Source: a virus
Length of the DNA stretch: 10,837 nt
UHGV virus genome: UHGV-0335500
Strand: one strand, 5' to 3'
This document shows positions 1-10,837 of the stretch, piece by piece. The position numbers were made by a program, and so were the translations under genes. The notes below the pieces were generated by a model. That model was not told the origin of the DNA, ran no database searches, and saw only the letters and a list, made by a program, of their open reading frames with translations. How positions within the stretch are numbered: the stretch's first letter is position 1; every line of letters starts with the position of its first letter.

Positions 1-58
1 CTGGCCTGTGAACCGGGTGGGTGCTCTGCTCCCGTGGCGGGTTACTCTGCCTGCCTGA

Positions 59-214
59 CCAGCTTCACTTCGTCAATACGGTTCTCACTGCACGCTTACG
101 GATAAATTTCCTTCAGCACAAATCATCATTGCTGCGGATAACGACCACAGCGAAGGAAGACAAAACACGGGGAGAATAGCAGCAGAAAAGGCAGCTTTAT
201 CTGTTTCTGGATGG
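59..214 (+). other. Upstream in-frame continuation of the primase reading frame (Toprim-like acidic motif), cut by a TGA at 56-58
   Basis: Manual translation of the frame of the 215 ORF upstream gives PASLRQYGSHCTLTDKFPSAQIIIAADNDHSEGRQNTGRIAAEKAALSVSGW, contiguous with the ORF. IIIAADNDHSEG resembles the Toprim DxD metal-binding motif. No ATG/GTG/TTG exists in this frame between the TGA at 56-58 and the GTG at 215. Confidence 0.5.
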
Positions 215-2080
215 GTGGCATTACCCCCGACAGATCACAAAGCAGACTGGAATGATTACCACCAAAAACACGGCATTAAATGCGCCACAGAAGCGTTCAA
301 TAAGTCAATGTACCAACCACAGGGTAATGGCGTGAAACAGGAGCCACAGACCATTGAGGGAAGCGATTTTAAGGTTATGGATACCGACCCACTGAAACCA
401 AGAATAGAAAGCCGCGAGGATGGTATTTATTGGGTATCTCCGAGAGCTGACAGCCAGAGTGGAGAAATCATCAATAACGAAAGCTGGTTATGTTCTCCGT
501 TAAGCGTTATCGGTACTGGCAGAGACGATAAAGACCAGTATCTCATTCTTCGCTGGCTGTCGTTTGGTTCTGAAACGCCGACAACCGCTGCCATTCCACT
601 GGCTGATATTGGTGAACGTGAAGGATGGCGCACACTTAAAGCTGGTGGGGTAAATGTCACGACCAAAAGCAGCCTCAGAGCAATACTGGCAGACTGGCTA
701 CAACGCAGTGGCTCTCGTGAATTGTGGCGTGTTGCTCATGCCACTGGCTGGCAATGCGGAGCGTACATCATGCCTGATGGGGAAATCATCGGAACACCTG
801 AAAATCCTGTGCTGTTCAGCGGGAGAAGCTCAGCCGCAGCCGGATATACCGTCTCAGGGAGCGCGAAAAGCTGGCGTGATAACGTGGCGCGTCTGGCCTT
901 TGGTAACTATTCAATGATGACCGGGATCGGCGCAGCACTGGCAGCGCCATTGATTGGGCTGGTGGGCGCTGACGGGTTCGGCATTCATTTCTATGAGCAG
1001 TCGAGCGCAGGTAAGACCACCACGGCAAACGTGGCGAGCAGCTTATACGGCAACCCTGATTTACTGCGGCTGACGTGGTACGGAACCGCGCTGGGGCTGG
1101 CAAATGAAGCCGCCGCCCACAATGACGGACTAATGCCGCTTGATGAAGTTGGTCAGGGCGCTGATCCTGTCAGTGTTTCACAGTCTGCCTATGCGTTATT
1201 TAACGGTGTAGGGAAACTGCAAGGCGCTAAAGATGGTGGAAACCGGGATCTAAAACGCTGGCGTACAGTGGCAATCAGCACCGGAGAAATGGATTTAGAA
1301 ACATTTATCGCTACTTCCGGGCGAAAAACCAAAGCCGGGCAACTGGTGCGACTGCTGAATATTCCGTTGAGTAAAGCAGTACGCTTTCACGATTACCAGA
1401 ACGGAAAACAGCACGCAGACGCACTGAAAGACGCTTACCAGCATCACCACGGCGCGTCCGGGCGTGAGTGGATTAAATGGCTGGCAGACCACCAGCAACA
1501 GGCTATTAAAACTGTTCGTGACTGCGAAAGCAGATGGAGAAGCCTGATCCCATCCGATTATGGTGAGCAGGTTCACCGTGTAGCCGCGCGATTTGCCATT
1601 CTGGAGGCCGCATTGTTGTTAGGCGAGGTTGTAACAGGCTGGGATGCTCAGACATGCCGTGATGCGATACAGCACAGCTATAACGCATGGTTGCGCGAGT
1701 TCGGCACAGGTAACAAAGAGCATCAGCAGATTATTGAACAAACGGAGGCATTTCTTAATGCCTATGGGCTTAGCCGTTTTGCACCATTTCCATACAGCCC
1801 GGCAGATTTGCCCATCAAAGATTTAGCCGGATACCGTCAGCGTGGAGAACATGACGAAAGCCCAATGATTTTCTACACATTCCCGGCCACATTTGAAAAG
1901 GAGATCGCATGTGGTTTCAACGCAAAACAGTTTGCTGAAGTGTTGAAAAAAGCCGGGATGCTAACCCCACCAAACAGCGGTCGTGGATACCAAAGAAAAT
2001 CACCACGTATTCAGGGACGACAAATAAACGTTTATGTACTCAATTACCAGCCAGGAGATTACAACTCATCTGAAGAATGA
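215..2080 (+). CDS. P4 alpha-like primase-helicase, C-terminal NTPase/helicase portion (D5_N / DUF927-type); gene looks 5'-disrupted or N-terminally truncated
   Basis: 621-aa ORF from GTG 215 to TGA 2078-2080. Walker A-like motif HFYEQSSAGKTTTANV sits at about 1007-1021. Overall architecture matches my recollection of P4 alpha-type primase-helicases, and the gene is followed immediately by iterons. Confidence 0.8.
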   Translation: MALPPTDHKADWNDYHQKHGIKCATEAFNKSMYQPQGNGVKQEPQTIEGSDFKVMDTDPLKPRIESREDGIYWVSPRADSQSGEIINNESWLCSPLSVIGTGRDDKDQYLILRWLSFGSETPTTAAIPLADIGEREGWRTLKAGGVNVTTKSSLRAILADWLQRSGSRELWRVAHATGWQCGAYIMPDGEIIGTPENPVLFSGRSSAAAGYTVSGSAKSWRDNVARLAFGNYSMMTGIGAALAAPLIGLVGADGFGIHFYEQSSAGKTTTANVASSLYGNPDLLRLTWYGTALGLANEAAAHNDGLMPLDEVGQGADPVSVSQSAYALFNGVGKLQGAKDGGNRDLKRWRTVAISTGEMDLETFIATSGRKTKAGQLVRLLNIPLSKAVRFHDYQNGKQHADALKDAYQHHHGASGREWIKWLADHQQQAIKTVRDCESRWRSLIPSDYGEQVHRVAARFAILEAALLLGEVVTGWDAQTCRDAIQHSYNAWLREFGTGNKEHQQIIEQTEAFLNAYGLSRFAPFPYSPADLPIKDLAGYRQRGEHDESPMIFYTFPATFEKEIACGFNAKQFAEVLKKAGMLTPPNSGRGYQRKSPRIQGRQINVYVLNYQPGDYNSSEE

Positions 2081-2096
2081 GCTTCTTCATGTGCGT

Positions 2097-2215
2097 AGAA
2101 AAGGTGTTGGTTCAGTTGGTTCAGTTGGTTCAATTTGTAAAGAGTATTGTTTTATAAGGATTTTATTCTTTTTATTGAACCAACACTGAACCAACAACAC
2201 GGCATTTTGAACCAA
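2097..2215. repeat. Iteron cluster A: 3 tight direct TTGGTTCA(G/A) repeats, AT-rich spacer, 3 inverted TGAACCAA repeats; ori/crr-like
   Basis: Direct 9-mers at 2107-2115, 2116-2124 and 2125-2133. AT-rich spacer 2134-2174. Inverted copies (C/T)TGAACCAA at 2175-2183, 2186-2194 and 2207-2215. Positions 2101-2144 are the exact reverse complement of 8601-8644. Lies 17 bp after the primase stop. Confidence 0.8.
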
Positions 2216-2315
2216 CACAACGTGACTGAATTGATGAGCACAACATCTGGCTGGCATTAGAGAGTGTTTTACGAAATCTGAACACCACATCACTGGTTTC
2301 AGTGGGAGATTGATG

Positions 2316-2771
2316 ATGAAGATAATCGCAAAGGCTTTTCATCATGTATTTGGCAAAGTATCCGATTTGCCATCTGTAATACCGATGAACAACAGAAGGG
2401 AGATGCTGCTTGATATGGTTGTGTTCCCATACATAGACCTTTCTGAACCAATGAAAGCAACTCTTTTCAGAAAGTATCTTGGCGACTTTAAACGCCGTTT
2501 TACAGGCGTTAACGGGATGGTTGATATCTGCTCCATCAGAGATATTGTTGAACTTGCAGGGATTAATTTGTGGGGAGAAGCGGCAGCAGCATACAAATGG
2601 CTTGAACGCCTGCACTGTGTTTCATTCAGTGACATGAGTGCTGATATCGCTTTAATGGTTCCTCACAAAATCAATATGGTCTTTGCTGGTGGCAATTACA
2701 CTTATCCATGGAACCAGGAACAAAGAGAGAACAGGAAAGCTCACGCCATGAAGAGTAATGCGACTCCATAA
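2316..2771 (+). CDS. Hypothetical protein (151 aa), stand-alone transcription unit
   Basis: ORF track 2310..2771. Shine-Dalgarno GGGAGA at 2304-2309 is best spaced for the ATG at 2316. An intrinsic terminator follows. No motif recognised. Confidence 0.6.
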   Translation: MKIIAKAFHHVFGKVSDLPSVIPMNNRREMLLDMVVFPYIDLSEPMKATLFRKYLGDFKRRFTGVNGMVDICSIRDIVELAGINLWGEAAAAYKWLERLHCVSFSDMSADIALMVPHKINMVFAGGNYTYPWNQEQRENRKAHAMKSNATP

Positions 2772-2823
2772 ATATAGTTTTTAGAGTCCATAAAAAAACT
2801 GTCAAAACCTGACATACAGAACG

Positions 2824-2856
2824 ATGCCACCAGCTACTGAACGGTGGCATTTTTTT
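2824..2856 (+). terminator. Rho-independent terminator after the 151-aa gene
   Basis: Stem ATGCCACC (2824-2831) pairs with GGTGGCAT (2843-2850), 11-nt loop, then a T run at 2851-2856. Just upstream, TGTCA-N5-TGACA (2801-2815) preceded by an A run could terminate on the opposite strand. Confidence 0.6.
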
Positions 2857-2887
2857 GTGCTATTTGTTTCATATTTTGCAATCACAA

Positions 2888-2918
2888 TGATGAATGTTGC
2901 GTTTTATGAAACTATAAT
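2888..2918 (+). promoter_or_regulatory. Putative sigma70 promoter for the 57-aa/489-aa/701-aa operon
   Basis: Perfect -10 TATAAT at 2913-2918. The -35 is weak (TGATGA/ATGAAT near 2888-2895). Located between the upstream terminator and the strong Shine-Dalgarno at 2941-2947. Confidence 0.35.
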
Positions 2919-2951
2919 GACTGTTGTTTTATACAGTTCTAAGGGGGCGTT

Positions 2952-3125
2952 ATGGCTATTTCAGTAAAGCCAGTATTGATAAGTGAGAAGCAAATGGAAG
3001 CGATAAAGAAAATTCAGGAGGAGCAGCGTAAAAAATCAGAGGTAGGAGTTGCGCCAACGATCCACGAAATTGCTCGGGGATTAATGGATAAGGCGCTGGC
3101 TTACACTTTAACTGGACGTGGGTAA
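2952..3125 (+). CDS. Small (57 aa) Lys/Glu-rich protein, possible ribbon-helix-helix DNA-binding protein; first gene of operon
   Basis: Not in the ORF track (under 60 aa). ATG 2952 is preceded by AAGGGGG at 2941-2947. Translation is MAISVKPVLISEKQMEAIKKIQEEQRKKSEVGVAPTIHEIARGLMDKALAYTLTGRG. The strand-helix-loop-helix pattern is by eye only. Stop TAA at 3123-3125 abuts the next start. Confidence 0.5.
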   Translation: MAISVKPVLISEKQMEAIKKIQEEQRKKSEVGVAPTIHEIARGLMDKALAYTLTGRG

Positions 3126-3129
3126 ATCA

Positions 3130-4596
3130 ATGGCTACGTGGCAACAGGGTATTAATTCTGGTGGTTTTCTGGCTGGCATCGGTACGCAAAATGAGAATGC
3201 GCCAAAGGCAAGCGACATTAACGCAACGCTTGGTCTGATCCGCGAAAACAATGAACTGGCTCGCTCAGGTGCAAATAACGTTGCTCTGACAGGTCTTCGT
3301 GGTCTGGCTGGCGTTGCTGATATTTATAAGCAGCAGCAACAGCAGGAGCGTAAAGCGGCATTCCAGAAAGGTTATGCAGATGCTTATGCGTCCGGTGACA
3401 GGGAGCAGATGCGTAATCTTATTACAGCATTCCCAGAAGAGTTTGAGGAAGTCCGTAAAGGGATGAGTTATGTCGATGATGCTCAAAGGGATGATTATGG
3501 CAATCTGGCGCTCAAAGCACAGGTAGCCTCATCGCTTGGTCAGGGCGCATTTGGCAGGTTCATGATGGATAATGAGCAGGAGATGCGTCGTTTAGGTATC
3601 CCTCCAGAAACTATTGCTGAAATGCAGGTTAATGACCCGCAGGGCTTCCAGCATTTCGCAGGTAATCTGGCGCTGTTTTCTCTCGGTCATGAGAAGTATT
3701 TCGATATCAAAGATCAAATGGAAGGTCGGGATATTGAGCGTGGCAAGTTGGCAGAGACAATCCGCAGCAATCAGGCTGGCGAAGCACTTCAGGCGAGAGG
3801 GCAGGATATTAGCCGAGCAAATGCGTTAACGTCAGCATATGCACCAACAGCAGCAATGCAGAATTACAATCAGTACGCTCAAATGTTAAAGGCGGATCCA
3901 GAGGGGGCGGCGGCATTTGCGGCAGCGGCTGGAATTAATACAAACGCCAAAAAATTAATGAGTGTTAGAGAAAACGATGATGGCACTGTCACAAAATACT
4001 ACACAGACGGAAGTGAAGAGCAGGGAAAACTAAACCAGCCAATATCTGGAGATGGGTTTCGTCCAATAGCTTTGCCAACAGCCCAAAAGATCATGGAAAA
4101 GTCGCCAGAAGGGGCTAAAAAAGCTGCTGGATTTGCATACAGGGTTAGGGATGCTCTTGATTCAATAGATACACTGAAAGACCAGCTTAGCCCACAGCGA
4201 GTGGCGATCATTAATAATGCTTTGGGTAATGGGACGCTGGCTAACTTAACGCTCAGCCCAACAGAACAGCAATACGTTGTTAATGCTAATGACGCAATAA
4301 TGGCAATACTCCGTCAGGAAACAGGGGCAGCCATCGTACCTGCTGAAATGTCAAAATATTATCAAATGTATTTCCCTCAGCCTGGCGACTCCACAAAAAC
4401 CATTGATACCAAGCGCCGGAAGATGGAAAACCAGTTCAATTCGCTGAAAGCTGCTTCTGGTCGAGCTTATGATGCTTTGCGGGTTATTTCAGCAGTTGAC
4501 AGAGGAACTTCTTCTTCGTCGCAGACATTGCCGCAATCTGAGCAGGTATCACAGCCAGCAGCCAGCAGTAACTTTTCTTCACTATGGGGTGATTAA
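3130..4596 (+). CDS. Hypothetical Ala/Gln-rich protein (about 489 aa), no recognisable catalytic motif
   Basis: Long ORF (track 3118..4596 from GTG; ATG 3130 preferred). Contains a poly-Gln run (KQQQQQERK) and is predicted to be largely helical and low-complexity. The stop overlaps the next start as TAATG at 4594-4598. Confidence 0.85.
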   Translation: MATWQQGINSGGFLAGIGTQNENAPKASDINATLGLIRENNELARSGANNVALTGLRGLAGVADIYKQQQQQERKAAFQKGYADAYASGDREQMRNLITAFPEEFEEVRKGMSYVDDAQRDDYGNLALKAQVASSLGQGAFGRFMMDNEQEMRRLGIPPETIAEMQVNDPQGFQHFAGNLALFSLGHEKYFDIKDQMEGRDIERGKLAETIRSNQAGEALQARGQDISRANALTSAYAPTAAMQNYNQYAQMLKADPEGAAAFAAAAGINTNAKKLMSVRENDDGTVTKYYTDGSEEQGKLNQPISGDGFRPIALPTAQKIMEKSPEGAKKAAGFAYRVRDALDSIDTLKDQLSPQRVAIINNALGNGTLANLTLSPTEQQYVVNANDAIMAILRQETGAAIVPAEMSKYYQMYFPQPGDSTKTIDTKRRKMENQFNSLKAASGRAYDALRVISAVDRGTSSSSQTLPQSEQVSQPAASSNFSSLWGD

Positions 4597-6701
4597 TGGC
4601 TAAAGCATGGAAAGATGTTATCGCCTCTCCACAGTATCAGGCGTTAGCACCAGAACAAAAAGCGCAGGCTCAGGAGCAATACTTCAATGAAGTCGTGGCC
4701 CCGCAAGCCGGAGAAAGTGTAGAGCAGGCTAAGCAGGCTTTTTATGCTGCCTATCCACTACCATCAACGAATGAAATAGACCGATCCCAATCAGCAACTC
4801 AAAATATTCAACATACATCATCTGATAATTCTCTTGCGTCAGGGTATGCAAAGTTAGCTACTCAGCAAAGAGAGGGGCTTGAGCGTTCAGCAGAACAGGG
4901 AGCCAGTCTTGGGGCTGCGATGCGCGATGCTATAACAGGCGAAAGCCGAATGACTCCAGAGATGGAGAGACTGCAAAATGTCGACCTTGCCCCAGAGTTA
5001 ACCTCACTCAGCATGGATGCTCTAAAAGCTCGATGGTCTCAACTTTTCGGCTCTGACGCATCTCAGGAAAAGATTCTTCAGAGCATGGGAGCGAAATTAA
5101 GGCAGGATGAGAAGGGTAACACTATCGTTTCCCTGCCATCCGGTGATTATGCTCTGAACAAGCCGGGTTTATCGCCGCAAGACGTGGCATCGTTTCTGGC
5201 TAATGCGCTGGCGTTTACACCAGCGGGCAGGGCTGGAACGGTGCTTGGTGCCATAGGAAAATCAGCAGCTACAGATTTAGCACTACAGGGAGCCACTAGC
5301 CTTGCTGGTGGAGAAGATATTGATCCGTTACAAACGGTAATTTCTGCTGGCATTGGTGGTATTGGTAAGGGGCTGGAAAATACAGCGAGTGCGGTTTCGA
5401 GGGCTGTTCGTGGTGATATGTCGCCTGAAGCAAAGGCTGCTGTCGACTTTGCATCGGAAAGAAATCTGCCGTTAATGACCAGTGACGTACTGAAAGATAA
5501 AAACACTGTGCAGAGTCTGGCCCAGAAAACAGGCGAAAAAATTCCTTTTTTTGGAACGGGTACGAACAGGCTGAATCAACAACAGGCTCGGGAAAATCTG
5601 GTCAGAACATATAACGATGGTCTGGGAGGCATTTCAGATAAACAGCTTTATGAGTCTGCTACTAAAGGGCAGCAAAAATTCATTGAGGCCGCAGGTAAGC
5701 GATATAACCGCATAATTGACGCTATGGGGGATACCCCTGTCGACCTATCAAACACGGTAAAAGCTATCGACAATCAGATTGCCGTGTTAAGCCGCCCGGG
5801 CAAATCTCAGGATAGAGCCGCGGTAAAAGTCTTGCAGCAATTTAAAGACGATATCACCAGCGGGCCAAATGACCTGCGTCTGGCGAGGGAAAACAGAACC
5901 GATCTTCGAAAGCGATTTATGGCGTCATCTGACACTGTTGATAAAGATACGCTCCAGAAAGCCAGCGATATTATCTACAAGGCATATACGGCGGATATGA
6001 AAAAAGCCGTAGCCAAAAATCTTGGAGCAGACGAAGCCATTAATATGGCAAGGGTTGATCGCTCATGGTCTAAATTCAATGACATGATGGGAAGAACGCG
6101 CGTTCAAAAGGCAATAGCCAGCGGCAAGGCCACGCCTGAGGATGTAACAAAACTCGTGTTTAGTCAAAGCCCATCAGAACGTTCTCAGCTTTACAGGCTT
6201 CTGGATGACAATGGTAGGCAAAACGCACGAGCAGCCATAGTTCAGAATGCTGTAGATAAGGCGACTGATCCGTCTGGAAATATCAGTGTTGAGAAGTTTA
6301 TTAATGCGTTACACCGGAACAGGAAGCAATCAGCAACTTTCTTTAAAGGCGTGCACGGAAAGGAACTGGACGGCATTATTAAATACCTCAACGATACCAG
6401 ACAGGCGGCAAAGGTTGACGGTCAGAAATTAAACAGCCAGAAACTTTATGGCCTGCTGGTTGGTGGAGGCGCTATAAATGCGGCAGTTCTGGCGGGGATG
6501 CTGAAAACGGCTGCGTTTGTTGTTCCTGCTGCTGGTGCTTTAGGCGGAGCAGCGAAGGCATACGAAAGCCCTGTTATACGAAATGCCTTATTACGTCTGG
6601 CAAATACGCCAAAAGGTAGCACAGCATATGACAGAGCGATCAGTACAGTCACACAATCACTGACCACAGCAGCACAAGCATCGCAAAAGGAAGCTCAATA
6701 A
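4596..6701 (+). CDS. Hypothetical large protein (701 aa) with glycine-zipper-like hydrophobic segments; possibly membrane-interacting
   Basis: ORF 4596..6701, translationally coupled to the upstream gene. Gly/Ala-rich hydrophobic stretches: TVLGAIGKSAATDLALQGATSLAGG, VISAGIGGIGKGL and C-terminal LYGLLVGGGAINAAVLAGMLKTAAFVVPAAGALGGAAKAY. No canonical Walker A or nuclease motif seen. Confidence 0.9.
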   Translation: MAKAWKDVIASPQYQALAPEQKAQAQEQYFNEVVAPQAGESVEQAKQAFYAAYPLPSTNEIDRSQSATQNIQHTSSDNSLASGYAKLATQQREGLERSAEQGASLGAAMRDAITGESRMTPEMERLQNVDLAPELTSLSMDALKARWSQLFGSDASQEKILQSMGAKLRQDEKGNTIVSLPSGDYALNKPGLSPQDVASFLANALAFTPAGRAGTVLGAIGKSAATDLALQGATSLAGGEDIDPLQTVISAGIGGIGKGLENTASAVSRAVRGDMSPEAKAAVDFASERNLPLMTSDVLKDKNTVQSLAQKTGEKIPFFGTGTNRLNQQQARENLVRTYNDGLGGISDKQLYESATKGQQKFIEAAGKRYNRIIDAMGDTPVDLSNTVKAIDNQIAVLSRPGKSQDRAAVKVLQQFKDDITSGPNDLRLARENRTDLRKRFMASSDTVDKDTLQKASDIIYKAYTADMKKAVAKNLGADEAINMARVDRSWSKFNDMMGRTRVQKAIASGKATPEDVTKLVFSQSPSERSQLYRLLDDNGRQNARAAIVQNAVDKATDPSGNISVEKFINALHRNRKQSATFFKGVHGKELDGIIKYLNDTRQAAKVDGQKLNSQKLYGLLVGGGAINAAVLAGMLKTAAFVVPAAGALGGAAKAYESPVIRNALLRLANTPKGSTAYDRAISTVTQSLTTAAQASQKEAQ

Positions 6702-6760
6702 CAGATGACCATGGATGGTTGGCTATAATAGTAATTAGTTTTTTCAAATAGTTATGAACA

Positions 6761-7159
6761 TTAACACTTGCCTTTAACATTGCCGACAAATGAGCCTGTA
6801 AATGAGCCTATATCAGATCGACTAATTGTTCGTGTATGGATCACTTTTCCGTCATTTGAGATTGCCCATGTGACAAGCGTCAGTTGACCATCTCGATAGC
6901 TTCTTCCCATCATGGCATTCGGAGATAGCGGGTAATAATCAATACCTCCACCTATACCATCTTTTGCCAAGATAAGATCCGCCTTCTCTTTACTTATTAC
7001 CAAATGAAAGGTATCTGGTATAGATGATAACTTATAGTTATACCCATCTGAACTTGAGGCTTCTTGTCCTTTCAGATCACCAATAATCCAGCATTCAGCG
7101 TTCGCTCCAAAAGAAGCAAATAATAAACCGGAGACAACCAATCGCTTCAATTGATTCAC
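6761..7159 (-). CDS. Small secreted (periplasmic) protein, about 132 aa with Sec signal peptide; unknown function
   Basis: Lies inside ORF-track 6761..7417 (minus). Preferred start is GTG at 7159-7157, preceded by a strong Shine-Dalgarno AAGGGAGGG. N-terminus MNQLKRLVVSGLLFASFGANA|ECW is a typical signal peptide with an AXA cleavage site. Mature part is about 111 aa with Cys near both ends. Convergent with the 701-aa gene. Confidence 0.65.
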   Translation of the reverse strand: MNQLKRLVVSGLLFASFGANAECWIIGDLKGQEASSSDGYNYKLSSIPDTFHLVISKEKADLILAKDGIGGGIDYYPLSPNAMMGRSYRDGQLTLVTWAISNDGKVIHTRTISRSDIGSFTGSFVGNVKGKC

Positions 7160-7239
7160 ACCAACCCTCCCTTTAGCGTTGTTTAGAATGGCAATCATCA
7201 TATATCCAAGACATGGCATTTGGTACATAGCTTGGGTCG

Positions 7240-7252
7240 GGATTTCAAATCC
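7240..7252. promoter_or_regulatory. 13-bp perfect palindrome GGATTTCAAATCC upstream of the secreted-protein gene; candidate operator
   Basis: Palindrome seen directly, about 80-95 bp upstream of the GTG at 7159 on the minus strand. Confidence 0.35.
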
Positions 7253-7343
7253 GCCCCCGTTGATGGGGTCGTTACAGTACGCGCATATCCGCTTTATGTG
7301 AAACAGGAAGATTTTTCTGATATCACTGCCACAGCAAAACACC

Positions 7344-7367
7344 AATTTCGTGACCAGTACGCGCGCG
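7344..7367. repeat. Dispersed 24-bp repeat, copy R2 (AATTTCGTGACCAGTACGCGCGCG)
   Basis: Shares AATTTC-N2-GA-N2-A-N-TACGCGCGCG with copies at 7631-7656 and 9240-9263. Shorter partial copies sit at 7275-7285 (ACAGTACGCGC) and 7405-7415 (GACCAGTACGC). Confidence 0.6.
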
Positions 7368-7630
7368 AGGGGTATCAGTTGCAAAAAATTTTGCAACTGC
7401 GTCCGACCAGTACGCACACGATGGCGGGGAGCACCATAAAACTGTTCTCTACATAAGACAGAGTGGTGGTGATGTGTTGATTATCGGCGTATATGCGCAC
7501 AGGACGCGCTATGACGATATTTTATGCGGGTACACCAATCACATGTATCTGGTGTGATCAATCGCGTTACATGACATCTCATGTTGTGCTGGTGATTATC
7601 ACGACGTTCTGAATCTGGCCTTTGCCTGAT

Positions 7631-7656
7631 ATTTTGCGACAAGTACGCGCGCGTAG
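7631..7656. repeat. Dispersed 24-bp repeat, copy R4, with perfect palindromic core GTACGCGCGCGTAC
   Basis: ATTTTGCGACAAGTACGCGCGCGTAG. The alternating CG core is self-complementary. Confidence 0.6.
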
Positions 7657-7681
7657 CATCGACAGCATACACATTGGATAT

Positions 7682-7882
7682 TCATTTTGTGACCAATGCG
7701 ATAAGTAGCGGGATAAGAATTGATAAAATCAACAGGACGATGATCCACTTTTGATTCTCGTCCATCTTATCTGCTAGGCGACGCTCCATTCCGTGCATAT
7801 CACCGCGAATGGCAATCATCTCATTGCGAACATCCGAGAAGTGGTTGGCTTGATGTTCAATGTGTGGCGTTCTGCCTTTCAT
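7682..7882 (-). CDS. Small tail-anchored membrane protein (66 aa); possibly XhlA/holin-like
   Basis: ATG at 7882-7880 preceded by Shine-Dalgarno GGTGAGGA. Translation MKGRTPHIEHQANHFSDVRNEMIAIRGDMHGMERRLADKMDENQKWIIVLLILSILIPLLIALVTK has a charged N-terminal part and one C-terminal transmembrane helix. Family assignment is from memory, low confidence. Confidence 0.55.
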   Translation of the reverse strand: MKGRTPHIEHQANHFSDVRNEMIAIRGDMHGMERRLADKMDENQKWIIVLLILSILIPLLIALVTK

Positions 7883-7961
7883 GTCTGATCCTCACCTATC
7901 GTCACCACCTGATGGTGTATAAAGGTATTAGCCCAAGCAGCTTTCCAATGGGCACTCATGT

Positions 7962-8417
7962 TTATACGCTGACCTTACAATCAATCACCGCTTTTAACTT
8001 TTCAGCATTGCTTCCCTGACGCTTCCACGCGCTGTAAATATCTTTATCCCACGCTTTACCAGCTTTTGTTTGATAGCCTGCTTCATTGATCCGTTCAGCT
8101 ATCACACGCCCATTATCAAATCCCTGTTGGATGGTATCGGCAATGATCTTTATAACTGCCGTTTCGTTATATGGTTTTGGTGGGATGTTCGGCTTTCCGG
8201 CAATAAGCGACGCAGCGGCTTTTTCCATGCGCTCCACCAGCCCAAGCATTCGTGAATCAATAGACTTTTCCGGCTGCCCCAGCTTCATGCGAATCGCATC
8301 AACAAGCCAAGAGGTTTTATCTCCTCCAGAAGCGAGAACAGACCGATTAAACTCATCCTGCAATTCAGATGGGATGCGGAACGCGATCAGATTAGATTTG
8401 CTCATTGCAAAGACCAT
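7962..8417 (-). CDS. Ribbon-helix-helix-like DNA-binding protein (147-151 aa)
   Basis: ORF track 7962..8417 (minus); alternative start ATG at 8405-8403 (MSKSNLIAFRIPSELQDEFNRSV...). N-terminus fits a beta-strand plus two helices. Co-directional with and 79 bp upstream of the 66-aa membrane protein gene, so probably one operon. Confidence 0.65.
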   Translation of the reverse strand: MVFAMSKSNLIAFRIPSELQDEFNRSVLASGGDKTSWLVDAIRMKLGQPEKSIDSRMLGLVERMEKAAASLIAGKPNIPPKPYNETAVIKIIADTIQQGFDNGRVIAERINEAGYQTKAGKAWDKDIYSAWKRQGSNAEKLKAVIDCKVSV

Positions 8418-8435
8418 ATCAGTGAGTAATATCCA

Positions 8436-8464
8436 TACAGTATACCACTGTATAACACTGTTAT
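8436..8464. promoter_or_regulatory. Adjacent palindromes TACAGT-N5-ACTGTA and ATAACA-C-TGTTAT upstream of the ribbon-helix-helix gene; candidate autoregulatory operator
   Basis: Inverted repeats read directly at 8436-8452 and 8452-8464, in the 5' region of the leftward gene. Confidence 0.4.
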
Positions 8465-8520
8465 ACGCTCAAATATCAGCCAGAAAATAACAGACCAATC
8501 ACAAATCTATCGCTGTGTTG

Positions 8521-8644
8521 TTGGTTCAGAGCTGGGCTGTGTTGGTTCAAAATGAGTTGATGTTGGTTCAATATTTTAGAAAAAACACAATAAAAACAAC
8601 GCTCTTTACAAATTGAACCAACTGAACCAACTGAACCAACACCT
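8521..8644. repeat. Iteron cluster B: inverted copy of cluster A (3 loose TTGGTTCA at 21-bp spacing, AT-rich spacer, 3 tight TGAACCAA); ori/crr-like
   Basis: TTGGTTCA(G/A) at 8521-8529, 8542-8550 and 8563-8571. AT-rich 8572-8612. (T/C)TGAACCAA at 8613-8621, 8622-8630 and 8631-8639. Positions 8601-8644 are the reverse complement of 2101-2144. Confidence 0.8.
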
Positions 8645-8676
8645 TTTTGCTTATCTATATAATCTGAGAGGCAGAA

Positions 8677-8964
8677 ATGATAAAGGACAGGAAAGCTGAA
8701 GAGCTGGAGTCAAAAGGGCTATACCGGAGAGCTGCCGCACGATGGGCAGAAGTCATGATGCTGGCAGATGGCGATAAAGAACGTGAACATGCAGTAAACA
8801 GACGCTCTGAATGTATCCGTAAGGCGGCACGCCCACCAGCAACTACAGACAGATTCGGAGATTTAAGACAGGCAGTTAAGCGGACTCATTCGGCTCTTGG
8901 TATGGATGAGGAAGCGAGAGGGTACTTCAGGCGTTATCGCGATAAAGATTGCCAGAGACAGTAA
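8677..8964 (+). CDS. PerC-family-like small transcriptional regulator (95 aa)
   Basis: ORF with Shine-Dalgarno GAGG 6 nt before the ATG. AEELESKGLYRRAAARWAEVMM resembles the conserved N-terminal signature of PerC/Pch-type regulators as I recall it. Confidence 0.6.
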   Translation: MIKDRKAEELESKGLYRRAAARWAEVMMLADGDKEREHAVNRRSECIRKAARPPATTDRFGDLRQAVKRTHSALGMDEEARGYFRRYRDKDCQRQ

Positions 8965-9070
8965 TGCTCTCTCTGTTTTGGCAAATTACCCCTCACTTTG
9001 AAGGGATCGGAGCTATAAAAATGGTGTTATCCGGAATCCTCAAATTGAGGATTGTGGAAGAATCAATGGG

Positions 9071-9084
9071 TTAGGTCATCGTGC
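9071..9084. other. Perfect 14-bp palindrome GTGCAAATTTGCAC in the junction region
   Basis: Read directly. Sits among other hairpin-capable repeats, for example AATCCTCA-N3-TGAGGATT around 9036-9054 (approximate) and GCCAACG-N8-CGTTGGC around 9090-9115. Confidence 0.4.
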
Positions 9085-9239
9085 AAATTTGCACTCTGCC
9101 AGCCAACGCAATTTCTCGTTGGCGGAAATATCAGGTATTTACTGAACGAACGGTCTACCAGTCTGTTCAGTTACCAGTTGCACATGGCTGTTTCATGTGA
9201 GAACGGAGGTTTTTTTCGGACATCGCTATTGGGTACAGC

Positions 9240-9263
9240 AATTTCACGAGCAATACGCGCGCG
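9240..9263. repeat. Dispersed 24-bp repeat, copy R5 (AATTTCACGAGCAATACGCGCGCG)
   Basis: Same motif as 7344-7367 and 7631-7656, about 1.6 kb away in the junction region. Confidence 0.55.
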
Positions 9264-9348
9264 CAGGACAACAAGCCTGAACATGGTTACACACCTCGAT
9301 CCTGAGGGATGTAGACAATGGCTTCTGACCAAAGCACCCGAAAAAACC

Positions 9349-9370
9349 GTGTACATAAGGGTGTACATAA
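9349..9370. repeat. Tandem direct repeat GTGTACATAA-GG-GTGTACATAA; possible recombinase arm-type or regulator binding sites
   Basis: Two identical 10-mers at 9349-9358 and 9361-9370. Confidence 0.45.
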
Positions 9371-9480
9371 TCAAAAATCGCATTAGCAAGAAACCAGCCA
9401 CAATGCGGCATTGAAGCCAACACTCTACAAACAGATTCAGAGTAACTCGTAACACTAATTCTTACTTTTCAGCCTTCACA

Positions 9481-9512
9481 AATGCCGCCCACTCAAACAG
9501 AGCGGCATTTTT
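9481..9512 (+). terminator. Rho-independent terminator-like hairpin upstream of dinD
   Basis: AATGCCGC (9481-9488) pairs with GCGGCATT (9502-9509), 13-nt loop, followed by a T run. Confidence 0.5.
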
Positions 9513-9604
9513 CTTCCCCGCAACTTCAATTCTGTTTTGCGTGCCTGCTCCAGATTTTGCGATGTTTTTTTGCCCAGCACACTGAGAACGTGAGATACTC
9601 ACAA

Positions 9605-9620
9605 CTGTATATAAATACAG
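9605..9620. promoter_or_regulatory. LexA (SOS) box in the dinD promoter
   Basis: CTGTATATAAATACAG matches the CTGT-N8-ACAG LexA consensus and sits 45 bp upstream of the dinD ATG. Confidence 0.8.
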
Positions 9621-9665
9621 TTACAGATTTACTTTCTTTGCAATCGATATCACATGGAGTGGGCA

Positions 9666-10490
9666 ATGAACGAACATCATCAACCTTTTGAAGAAATACG
9701 GCATTATGGCACTGAAGGGCAAGAATTTTGGTCAGCTAGAGAATTGGCACCGTTACTGGATTATCGGGACTGGCGCAATTTTCAAAAGGTACTGGCCCGC
9801 GCGACTCAAGCGTGCGAAGCCAGCAATCAAGCTGCATCTGACCATTTCGTTGAAACCACCAAAATGGTTGTATTAGGTTCAGGGGCTCAACGAGAACTTG
9901 AAGATGTTCATCTCTCCCGCTATGCCTGTTACCTGGTAGTACAAAACGGCGACCCTGCGAAACCGGTTATTGCGGCAGGGCAAACTTATTTTGCTATCCA
10001 GACCCGACGGCAGGAGCTGGCTGACGATGAAGCTTTCAGGCAACTTCGTGAAGACGAAAAGCGTCTTTTTCTGAGAAATGAATTGAAAGAACATAACAAA
10101 CAATTGGTTGAGGCAGCGCAGCAAGCTGGGGTAGCGACAGCTATCGATTTCGCCATATTTCAGAATCATGGTTACCGGGGGCTGTATGGTGGATTAGATC
10201 AGAAAGCCATCCATCAGCGGAAGGGGCTGAAAAAGAGTCAGAAGATCCTGGATCATATGGGTTCAACAGAACTGGCGGCTAATCTCTTTCGAGCTACCCA
10301 AACAGAAGAAAAACTCAAGCGGGATGGCGTGAATTCAAAACAGCAAGCAAACACCACACACTTTGACGTGGGTCGCAAGGTGAGGCAAACCATTCAGGAA
10401 CTTGGCGGAACCATGCCTGAGGAGTTGCCGACCTCGCAGGTCAGCATCAAGCAGTTGGAAAACAGTGTAAAAATTACAGAGAAGAAATAG
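9666..10490 (+). CDS. dinD: DNA damage-inducible protein D (DinD), 274 aa
   Basis: ORF track 9654..10490. ATG 9666 (MNEHHQPFEEIRHYGTEGQEFW...) is preferred because GGAGTGGG precedes it. Identity rests on recalled E. coli DinD and the LexA box upstream. Confidence 0.8.
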   Translation: MNEHHQPFEEIRHYGTEGQEFWSARELAPLLDYRDWRNFQKVLARATQACEASNQAASDHFVETTKMVVLGSGAQRELEDVHLSRYACYLVVQNGDPAKPVIAAGQTYFAIQTRRQELADDEAFRQLREDEKRLFLRNELKEHNKQLVEAAQQAGVATAIDFAIFQNHGYRGLYGGLDQKAIHQRKGLKKSQKILDHMGSTELAANLFRATQTEEKLKRDGVNSKQQANTTHFDVGRKVRQTIQELGGTMPEELPTSQVSIKQLENSVKITEKK

Positions 10491-10780
10491 CAGAAACTAA
10501 AAACTCTTTTTGTTGATTGAGATACCCGATGCGTAAGCCAAAGTCCAGGTGCGGTGAACACAATGGCTAACATTGCACCTTTCTTTTCCACCCCTCAGTT
10601 TTAACCTACTTTTTCTTATGTATTTTCTCAGACAAGAAGTCAGAAGAATGCATCTACGCTACAGAAAACAACGATTTCACATAACTAAAAATTATCAATT
10701 TCCTCTCACCTTAAAAAATCTCAATCGTGACAATGCGTACAAATCGCTACCCTGCCAGACAGATTTTTAGGGAGAGAACC

Positions 10781-10837
10781 ATGCTGTTACACATTTTGTA
10801 TTTGGTTGGCATTACTGCCGAAGCCATGACGGGGGCG
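10781..10837 (+). CDS. yicG: 5' end of inner-membrane protein YicG (UPF0126 family), runs off the window
   Basis: ATG 10781 preceded by GGGAGAG. MLLHILYLVGITAEAMTGA matches my recollection of the YicG N-terminus, and yicG follows dinD in E. coli K-12. Confidence 0.6.
   Translation, partial: MLLHILYLVGITAEAMTGA

What the first reader, a model, noticed from the sequence alone, without database searches (positions are those of the whole stretch)
1..2080. Primase-helicase reading frame is interrupted upstream
The frame of the 215 ORF continues upstream through a Toprim-like motif (IIIAADNDHSEGR) and then hits TGA at 56-58, with no start codon between 59 and 215. Neither other frame at the window start continues it convincingly. 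Either the gene is a frameshifted or nonsense pseudogene (a decaying satellite) or there is a sequence error. This bears on whether the island can still replicate from the iteron clusters.
Basis: seen in the sequence. Interest (0 to 1): 0.4.

Follow-up and report, generated by a model that had tools for sequence, protein, structure and literature searches.

The report
IS66 insertion splits island primase gene
The primase-helicase gene of this E. coli chromosomal island is not mutated or mis-sequenced: a 2.4-kb IS66-family insertion sequence has landed in it, and the "premature stop" is the transposase's own stop codon. This is an ordinary way for a gene to be broken.

Summary
The sequence facts hold. 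TGA is at 56-58, there is no ATG/GTG/TTG in frame from 59 to 214, and a genuine Toprim motif follows. Window 1-99 is the right end of an IS66-family element, 100% identical to complete 2,437-bp copies. It ends in the terminal repeat ...CGCTTAC at base 99. TGA 56-58 is the natural stop of its transposase gene tnpC. From base 100 the window is 100% identical to an intact 918-aa primase-helicase gene (Zn-ribbon, Toprim, DUF927). Codons 260-918 are present and unchanged.

I predicted the other junction: primase codons 1-261, then 17 codons read from the IS left end. That exact 278-aa protein exists, and four fetched contigs carry its DNA (one draft E. coli genome, three metagenomes). The 8-bp duplication GGATAAAT marks a simple transposition. 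The insertion splits the Toprim catalytic domain, with the Glu motif upstream and DxD downstream. All other genes in the window are full-length, so the event looks recent. The helicase/initiator part and the iteron origin are untouched. Whether they are still expressed is unknown. This is an ordinary IS-insertion pseudogene.

The parts
1..58 (+). 3' end of the IS66-family transposase gene tnpC: the last 18 codons (...WPVNRVGALLPWRVTLPA) plus its natural TGA stop at 56-58
   Evidence: 100% identical to complete IS copies. In L002 the annotated tnpC CDS ends at locus 4058, which is window 58. The C-terminus of the L002 tnpC translation is ...DWPVNRVGALLPWRVTLPA*. Pfam finds DDE_Tnp_IS66 and IS66_C on that tnpC.
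59..99 (+). Non-coding right end of the IS, including the terminal inverted repeat (about 78-99), ending ...CACGCTTAC (reverse complement of GTAAGCG)
   Evidence: Four independent IS copies are identical through base 99 and diverge from base 100. The inverted-repeat arms are CGTAAGCGTCGTCTGAGTACCGT / ACGGTTCTCACTGCACGCTTACG.
100..107 (.). GGATAAAT, the right-hand copy of the 8-bp target-site duplication
   Evidence: The same 8 bp directly precede the IS left end in L013-L016 (...CTGCGGGATAAAT|GTAAGCG...) and occur once in the intact gene. Reference IS copies carry 8-bp (two copies) or 9-bp (one copy) duplications.
101..2080 (+). 3' remnant of the fused primase-helicase (Pri-Rep) gene: codons 260-918 plus stop. 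It holds the second half of Toprim (DxD at residues 272-274), the DUF927 helicase (Walker A GKT at residue 563) and the C-terminal region.
   Evidence: 100.0% nucleotide identity to the intact gene over 100-2400. The translation is identical to residues 260-918 of WP_016238271.1. Pfam finds Toprim_3 (partial) and DUF927.
2104..2222 (.). Iteron-type replication origin just downstream of the gene. Three GTTGGTTCA repeats at 9-nt spacing (2106-2138), an AT-rich centre (about 2139-2174), and three TGAACCAAC repeats in the opposite orientation (2175-2222).
   Evidence: the repeat finder families D1-D3 and inverted pairs I2-I11. The layout matches the PICI/SaPI origin described in PMC6092414 and PMC9371898.

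Best explanation
An IS66-family insertion sequence (tnpA-tnpB-tnpC; 2,437 bp in complete reference copies) transposed into the fused primase-helicase (Pri-Rep) gene of an integrase-bearing island. The island lies between yicC and dinD on the E. coli chromosome. The IS landed after nucleotide 784 of the 2,757-nt gene, in the same orientation as the gene, and duplicated 8 bp (GGATAAAT). The window begins 99 bases before the right end of the IS. It therefore shows the end of tnpC (stop at 56-58), the IS terminal repeat, and then codons 260-918 of the broken gene. The insertion separates the Zn-ribbon and the Toprim glutamate motif (IAEG, residues 223-226) from the Toprim DxD motif (272-274). No polypeptide can now carry a complete primase active site. 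Shown: both junctions, the target duplication, and the identity of the remnant to the intact gene. Inferred: primase activity is lost; the Rep-like helicase/origin-binding part has lost its start codon and ribosome site, so island-autonomous replication from the adjacent iterons is probably abolished or greatly reduced; the event is recent.
For: Window 1-99 is 100% identical to the right end of IS66-family copies in unrelated loci, and similarity stops at exactly 99 in all of them. The last bases are CGCTTAC, the mirror of the left end GTAAGCG. Every one of the best E. coli matches to the gene starts at exactly base 100, the best at 100.0% identity, and the pairwise alignment shows a clean break. 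A simple insertion predicts a 278-aa chimeric ORF at the other junction. That exact sequence is in the protein collection. Its DNA reads ...CTGCGGGATAAAT|GTAAGCGTCGTC... with 53-126 nt of perfect IS left end in a draft E. coli genome (GCA_028654255.1) and three metagenome contigs. In the draft genome the junction is preceded by yicC, integrase, alpA and the rest of the island. An independent metagenome scaffold (L007) is 100% identical to window 46-7324, including the right junction. Intact relatives encode 918 aa with Zn_Ribbon_Prim 34-69, Toprim_3 221-318 and DUF927 365-643. The remnant equals residues 260-918. The other nine genes in the window are full-length and 98.9-100% identical to an island with an intact gene.
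Against: The two junctions were found in different assemblies, and no single assembly shows both. So I cannot show that the 5' fragment is present in the window's own genome. The interior of the IS is not assembled at this site, so its completeness is assumed from reference copies. Loss of function rests on domain logic, not on an assay. Deleting pri-rep in the related island EcCICFT073 reduced transfer about 100-fold but did not abolish it. No complete E. coli genome, GTDB species representative, JGI metagenome contig or IMG/VR contig holds the junction, so the allele is rare.
Confidence: 0.93

Rival explanations
1. A point nonsense or frameshift mutation within the primase gene created the TGA at 56-58.
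For: TGA is in the same frame as the downstream ORF, and no start codon follows until 215.
Against: Bases 1-99 have no similarity to the intact gene. The alignment to L001 collapses upstream of base 100. They are 100% identical to an IS66-family end, where the TGA is the annotated tnpC stop.
Confidence: 0.01
2. A sequencing or assembly artefact: a chimeric contig end joins an IS fragment to the gene.
For: The window holds only 99 nt of IS, a length typical of a contig that stops at a repeat after about one assembler k-mer. Contigs named k127 and k119 stop 126 and 119 nt into the same IS.
Against: The junction lies exactly at the IS terminus. The same right junction occurs in an independent metagenome scaffold. 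The complementary left junction, with a matching 8-bp duplication, occurs in four further contigs from different projects. A contig breaking inside a repeat is expected of a real multi-copy IS and does not suggest a chimera.
Confidence: 0.02
3. In the window's own genome the IS mediated a deletion or rearrangement, so the 5' third of the gene is gone and not merely displaced by 2.4 kb.
For: The window does not reach the other side of the IS, and the left junction was seen only in other assemblies. Another island allele has lost the 5' part by deletion (L027/L028).
Against: The left junction found elsewhere carries exactly the 8 bp that flank the window's right junction. It also sits in the same chromosomal context (yicC side) and the same IS orientation. 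One shared insertion allele is the simplest account.
Confidence: 0.04
4. The remnant is not dead. A Rep-only protein (helicase plus origin-binding part) is translated from an internal start (GTG 215, GTG 332 or ATG 377) and still fires the adjacent iteron origin with a host or helper-phage primase.
For: The remnant ORF is identical to the intact gene. In SaPIs, Pri and Rep are often separate proteins and Rep alone loads itself at the iterons. Other alleles encode a DUF927-only ORF: frameshift alleles give a 567-aa ORF from the ATG at window 377 (L008-L010), and a deletion allele gives a 582-aa ORF (L027/L028).
Against: The simple scan found no sigma-70-like promoter on the + strand in 1-2400. 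None of the internal starts has a well-spaced Shine-Dalgarno sequence (context, my reading). An identical remnant is equally expected of a very recent insertion. The other Pri-less alleles may simply be further pseudogenes.
Confidence: 0.12

Closest known systems
IS66-family insertion sequences (three-gene tnpA-tnpB-tnpC elements of Enterobacteria)
   Same: Window 1-99 is identical to the right end of complete 2,437-bp copies. Those copies carry tnpA, tnpB and a tnpC with the DDE_Tnp_IS66 and IS66_C domains. The ends read GTAAGCG...CGCTTAC, and there is an 8-bp target duplication.
   Different: Nothing differs in kind. Only the last 99 bases are in the window. I could not name the element, because no ISfinder look-up was available.
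Pri-Rep/ori replication module of Gram-negative phage-inducible chromosomal islands (e.g. EcCICFT073; Fillol-Salom et al. 2018, PMC6092414) and SaPI PriRep/Rep self-loading helicases (Qiao et al. 2022, PMC9371898)
   Same: The gene order is integrase, AlpA-type regulator, a rightward operon, a fused primase-initiator gene, and then two opposed iteron sets around an AT-rich centre. PerC is carried as an accessory gene. The only solved structure matched is a 'Pathogenicity island protein' (8tch, E=1.4e-11, over the helicase part). NCBIfam gives a distant hit to the SCCmec Cch helicase.
   Different: Here the Pri part is cut by an IS. The island also carries P22 gp20/gp16-like ejection-protein genes, which the PICI definition does not expect. 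Sequence identity to the EcCICFT073 Pri-Rep was not measured.
Satellite phage P4 alpha protein (primase-helicase-origin binding)
   Same: One polypeptide combines an N-terminal Zn-ribbon/Toprim primase, a central helicase and presumably a C-terminal origin-binding part (P4 domain order from my own knowledge).
   Different: The helicase part here is DUF927, not the DUF5906/D5-type module seen in a sister allele of the same island (L025). PMC6092414 states that E. coli PICI Pri-Rep proteins differ in sequence from P4 alpha. I made no direct comparison with P4 alpha.

Membership tests
IS66-family insertion sequence | Transposase TnpC with DDE_Tnp_IS66 and IS66 C-terminal domains | tested here: met
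   The tnpC of the identical reference copy (L002) hits PF03050 at 4e-103 and PF13817 at 3e-17. Window 1-58 equals its last 18 codons plus stop.
IS66-family insertion sequence | Terminal inverted repeats beginning GTAAGCG | tested here: met
   The left end is GTAAGCGTCGTC... and the right end is ...CACGCTTAC at window 99. The arms are 23 nt and 78% complementary.
IS66-family insertion sequence | 8-bp target-site duplication flanking the element | tested here: met
   GGATAAAT lies before the IS left end in L013-L016 and after the right end in the window and L007. The two sides come from different assemblies.
IS66-family insertion sequence | tnpA-tnpB-tnpC gene order within the inserted copy | not testable with these tools
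   The interior of the IS at this site is not assembled in any contig found. The order is present in the reference copies L002, L004 and L005.
Functional Toprim primase domain | Conserved Glu motif and DxD motif in one polypeptide | tested here: not met
   IAEG (residues 223-226) lies upstream of the insertion and DND (272-274) downstream. Pfam Toprim_3 covers 221-318 in the intact protein but only profile positions 38-94 in the remnant.
Gram-negative PICI (phage-inducible chromosomal island) | Integrase, AlpA regulator and rightward operon with a (fused) pri-rep followed by an iteron origin with an AT-rich centre | tested here: met
   Gene order in L003, L013 and L017; origin anatomy at 2104-2222; criteria from PMC6092414.
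Gram-negative PICI (phage-inducible chromosomal island) | Absence of phage structural genes | tested here: not met
   Window 3130-4596 matches Inj_translocase (P22 gp20-like, E=1.6e-83). Window 4596-6701 is tagged PF26808 Phage_P22_gp16.
Gram-negative PICI (phage-inducible chromosomal island) | Induction, replication and packaging by a helper phage | not testable with these tools
   This needs experiments.
P4 alpha-type primase-helicase | Sequence homology to P4 alpha across the primase and helicase parts | not tested
   I did not compare directly with P4 alpha. The helicase domain here is DUF927, while a sister allele (L025) carries DUF5906.

The most novel reading that the evidence does not exclude
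Loss of the primase half, with a perfectly preserved Rep-like helicase/initiator ORF and origin, recurs independently in this island family: by IS66 insertion here, by 1-2-nt deletions in the Toprim-DUF927 linker in L008-L010, and by a deletion in L027/L028. This could reflect selection for a Rep-only replicon that borrows a host or helper primase, with the remnant here translated from an internal start, and not mere decay.
Probability: 0.1. Interest if true: 0.35.

Novelty: already known. Interest (0 to 1): 0.1.

Why it matters
It matters mainly for annotation. The "interrupted frame" should be recorded as an IS66-family insertion in a pri-rep gene, not as a nonsense mutation or a sequencing error, and TGA 56-58 belongs to tnpC. 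For the island's biology, this copy has very probably lost its own primase. By analogy with the EcCICFT073 pri-rep deletion (about 100-fold lower transfer, PMC6092414), it is likely a poorly mobilisable or immobilised copy, while its cargo (P22-like ejection proteins, PerC) remains intact. The allele could also serve as a lineage marker, since the same junctions appear in several gut and other metagenomes.

Tried and rejected
- **Exact junction search.** I searched for the 34-nt right junction in GTDB species-representative genomes, JGI metagenome contigs and IMG/VR. There were no hits.
- **Complete E. coli genomes.** A megablast of window 60-160 and of the whole window against 5,426 genomes found no record spanning 99|100. 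The source genome is therefore not in those sets.
- **Similarity just beyond base 99.** Some IS hits extended to 105-123, so I checked whether bases beyond 99 belong to the IS. An alignment of four copies shows divergence from base 100. The extension comes from partial chance or target-site similarity, e.g. GGATAAAC in L002.
- **'DUF927 domain-containing protein' annotations.** I checked whether these (H12) mark naturally shorter genes. They do not; that gene is also 2,757 nt.
- **Finding the right-junction contig of GCA_028654255.1.** I looked up the 701-aa neighbour protein, but the ten places returned were all intact islands.
- **Promoter scan of 1-2400.** It found no + strand candidate that could drive the remnant.
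- **Literature.** Searches for IS66 end and duplication rules and for PDB entry 8TCH returned nothing usable. The family rules I cite rest on my own knowledge plus the direct measurements.

Full report
**1. The observation**

In the frame of the ORF that the ORF listing starts at GTG 215, translation from base 2 reads WPVNRVGALLPWRVTLPA*, with the stop at 56-58. It then continues PASLRQYGSHCTLTDKFPSAQIIIAADNDHSEGRQNTGR.... No ATG, GTG or TTG lies in frame between 59 and 214. The other two frames contain stops. Pfam confirms that IIIAADNDHSEGR belongs to a Toprim domain (Toprim_3, E=1.6e-7). Only profile positions 38-94 of 95 are matched, so the first third of the domain is absent. A DUF927 helicase domain follows (E=1.9e-47).

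**2. What lies upstream of the motif**

A megablast of window 1-2400 against 5,426 complete E. coli genomes gave 948 records. Every one of the 30 best matches begins at exactly base 100, and the best is 100.0% identical over 100-2400. The same holds for the whole window, with a best match of 100-10836 at 99.6%.

Bases 1-130 searched alone hit the 3' end of "tnpC: IS66 family transposase" in thousands of records. In L002 (strain ECCHD184) the annotated tnpA-tnpB-tnpC element has its tnpC CDS ending at the position that equals window 58. Its translated C-terminus is ...DWPVNRVGALLPWRVTLPA*. The TGA at 56-58 is therefore the transposase's own stop codon.

Four independent IS copies (window, L002, L004, L005) are identical through base 99 and unrelated from base 100 onward. 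The element ends ...CACGCTTAC, the mirror of its left end GTAAGCGTCGTC.... The reference copies are 2,437 bp and are flanked by 8-bp (two copies) or 9-bp (one copy) direct repeats.

The pairwise alignment with an intact gene (L001) shows perfect identity from base 100 and none upstream. The open stretch 59-99 is IS DNA that happens to lack stops in that frame.

**3. The intact gene and where it is cut**

In L001, L003 and L006, and in nine of ten further islands, the gene is an uninterrupted 2,757-nt CDS encoding 918 aa. One example is WP_016238271.1, annotated "TOPRIM and DUF927 domain-containing protein". Its domains are Zn_Ribbon_Prim at 34-69, Toprim_3 at 221-318 and DUF927 at 365-643.

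Window base 100 is nucleotide 777 of the CDS, the third base of codon 259. The translation of 101-2077 is identical to residues 260-918. The Toprim glutamate motif IAEG (223-226) lies upstream of the break. The DxD motif DND (272-274) and the Walker A motif GKT (563) lie downstream.

**4. Testing the simple-insertion model**

If the IS transposed in the usual way, the other junction should read primase...CTGCG GGATAAAT | GTAAGCGTCGTC.... It should also create a 278-aa ORF: residues 1-261, then CKRRLSTVWSRIQDPVT read from the IS left end.

An exact-sequence look-up found that very protein (P0001; NCBI and ENA). Its DNA was then fetched in a draft E. coli genome (GCA_028654255.1, contig JAPUSI010000027.1) and three metagenome contigs. 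All four have the predicted junction followed by 53-126 nt of perfect IS left end, after which the contig stops.

In the draft genome the junction is preceded by dut-slmA-pyrE-rph-yicC, then integrase, AlpA, AntA and the rest of the island. This is the same chromosomal site (yicC to dinD) as the intact island in L003, and it complements the window, which runs on to dinD and yicG.

An independent metagenome scaffold (L007) is 100% identical to window 46-7324 and carries the same right junction.

The matching 8-bp duplication, the consistent orientation and the recurrence in several projects exclude a sequencing error and make a simple insertion the clear best reading. Two caveats remain. No single assembly shows both junctions. 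The IS interior at this site is unassembled, because short-read contigs stop about one k-mer into the repeat: contigs named k127 and k119 stop after 126 and 119 nt. The window's 99 nt of IS suggest it also starts at such a contig end.

**5. State of the rest of the island**

All nine other genes in the window are full-length and 98.9-100% identical to their counterparts in an island with an intact gene. They are a 151-aa and a 57-aa ORF, P22 gp20-like and gp16-like ejection proteins, three small reverse-strand ORFs, PerC and the flanking dinD. The remnant itself has no further change. The insertion is the only visible lesion and is therefore probably recent. "Decaying" overstates the case.

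**6. Function and consequences**

The island has the architecture described for Gram-negative phage-inducible chromosomal islands: integrase, AlpA, a rightward operon, a fused pri-rep gene, and directly after it an origin with two opposed iteron sets around an AT-rich centre (PMC6092414). Here that origin consists of three GTTGGTTCA repeats at 2106-2138, AT-rich 2139-2174, and three TGAACCAAC repeats at 2175-2222.

The helicase part is distantly related to a solved "Pathogenicity island protein" (8tch, E=1.4e-11) and to the SCCmec Cch helicase model. SaPI Reps are self-loading helicases that recognise the iterons through a C-terminal winged-helix domain. Pri may be a separate protein or fused to Rep (PMC9371898).

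- **Shown:** the insertion splits the Toprim fold and removes the native start, ribosome site and Zn-ribbon from the Rep-containing part.
- **Inferred:** primase activity is lost, and Rep is no longer made at normal levels. No + strand promoter-like site was found in 1-2400, and the internal starts at 215, 308, 332 and 377 lack well-placed Shine-Dalgarno sequences (my reading of the contexts).
- **Benchmark from a related island:** in EcCICFT073 a pri-rep deletion lowered transfer from about 4-8 x 10^3 to 37-87 transductants per ml, and a rep mutant plasmid could not be maintained. A strong but perhaps incomplete loss of mobilisation is the expected phenotype.

**7. A less ordinary reading**

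Other alleles have also lost Pri while keeping the DUF927 ORF. L008-L010 carry 1-2-nt deletions in the linker, including GGG to GG at the equivalent of window 356-358. These split the gene into a 348-aa primase and a 567-aa ORF starting at the ATG equal to window 377. L027/L028 have a deletion running from antA into the gene, leaving a 582-aa ORF. This could be plain decay. It could also hint that a Rep-only replicon is viable. I give the second reading about 10%.

**8. Verdict**

The sequence facts are confirmed and the proposed mechanism is replaced. This is an IS66-family insertion pseudogene of a PICI-type pri-rep gene, which is a well-known kind of event. Interest is low.

Noticed in passing
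window 3130-6701: A PICI-like island with integrase, AlpA, pri-rep and an iteron origin carries two large genes for P22-type DNA ejection proteins. One is gp20-like (Inj_translocase, E=1.6e-83) and one is gp16-like (PF26808). A sister allele (L024) adds gp7-like and DUF2824 genes. Virion ejection proteins are not expected cargo under the PICI definition. They might let the island modify or replace the helper phage's ejection proteins.
   Followed up: partly
L008 3300-3400, L009 and L010 (equivalent to window ~335-372): Three Logan assemblies carry 1-2-nt deletions in the Toprim-DUF927 linker, including GGG to GG at window 356-358. These split the gene into a 348-aa primase ORF ending at TAA (window 370-372) and a 567-aa DUF927 ORF starting 4 nt later at the ATG equal to window 377. 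Two further contigs (L011, L012) begin 1-2 nt before that ATG. This suggests within-sample polymorphism at this spot.
   Followed up: partly
L027/L028 3379-5749: A shorter island at a different chromosomal site (next to an aldehyde dehydrogenase gene) has a deletion running from inside antA into pri-rep. It leaves a 582-aa DUF927-only ORF. This is a third independent way of losing the primase half.
   Followed up: no
window 100-107; L002 4100-4107: The target duplication here (GGATAAAT) matches 7 of 8 bases of the duplication of an identical IS copy inserted in a type I-E CRISPR repeat in strain ECCHD184 (GGATAAAC). In one search, 1,486 records had matches extending at least 5 nt past the IS end. 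This could reflect a target-site preference of this IS, or one widely inherited insertion.
   Followed up: no
window 1-99; L013-L016 and L007 contig ends: Every contig that holds either junction stops 53-126 nt into the IS, tracking the assembler k-mer (contigs named k127 stop at 126 nt and k119 at 119 nt). The window's 99 nt of IS suggests the window begins at the end of a short-read contig assembled with k of about 99.
   Followed up: partly
L013 7703-8323 (also L017, L019, L026 at 2431-3051): In the genome with the left junction, and in several islands with an intact pri-rep, no gene is called where other islands have the 342-aa ash-family gene. Only short ORFs follow. The ash gene may be disrupted or replaced in this sub-lineage.
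   Followed up: no
window 8677-8964 and 9654-10490: The island ends with a PerC-family regulator gene (95 aa) about 0.7 kb before the chromosomal dinD gene (Bro-N domain). The window's right end lies about 55 nt inside yicG. The island therefore occupies the yicC-dinD intergenic site.
   Followed up: partly
L025 4269-6620: One otherwise collinear island carries a different replication gene at the same position: 783 aa with Zn_Ribbon_Prim, Toprim_3 and DUF5906 instead of DUF927. This looks like modular exchange of the helicase/initiator part, and presumably of the origin, between islands.
   Followed up: no
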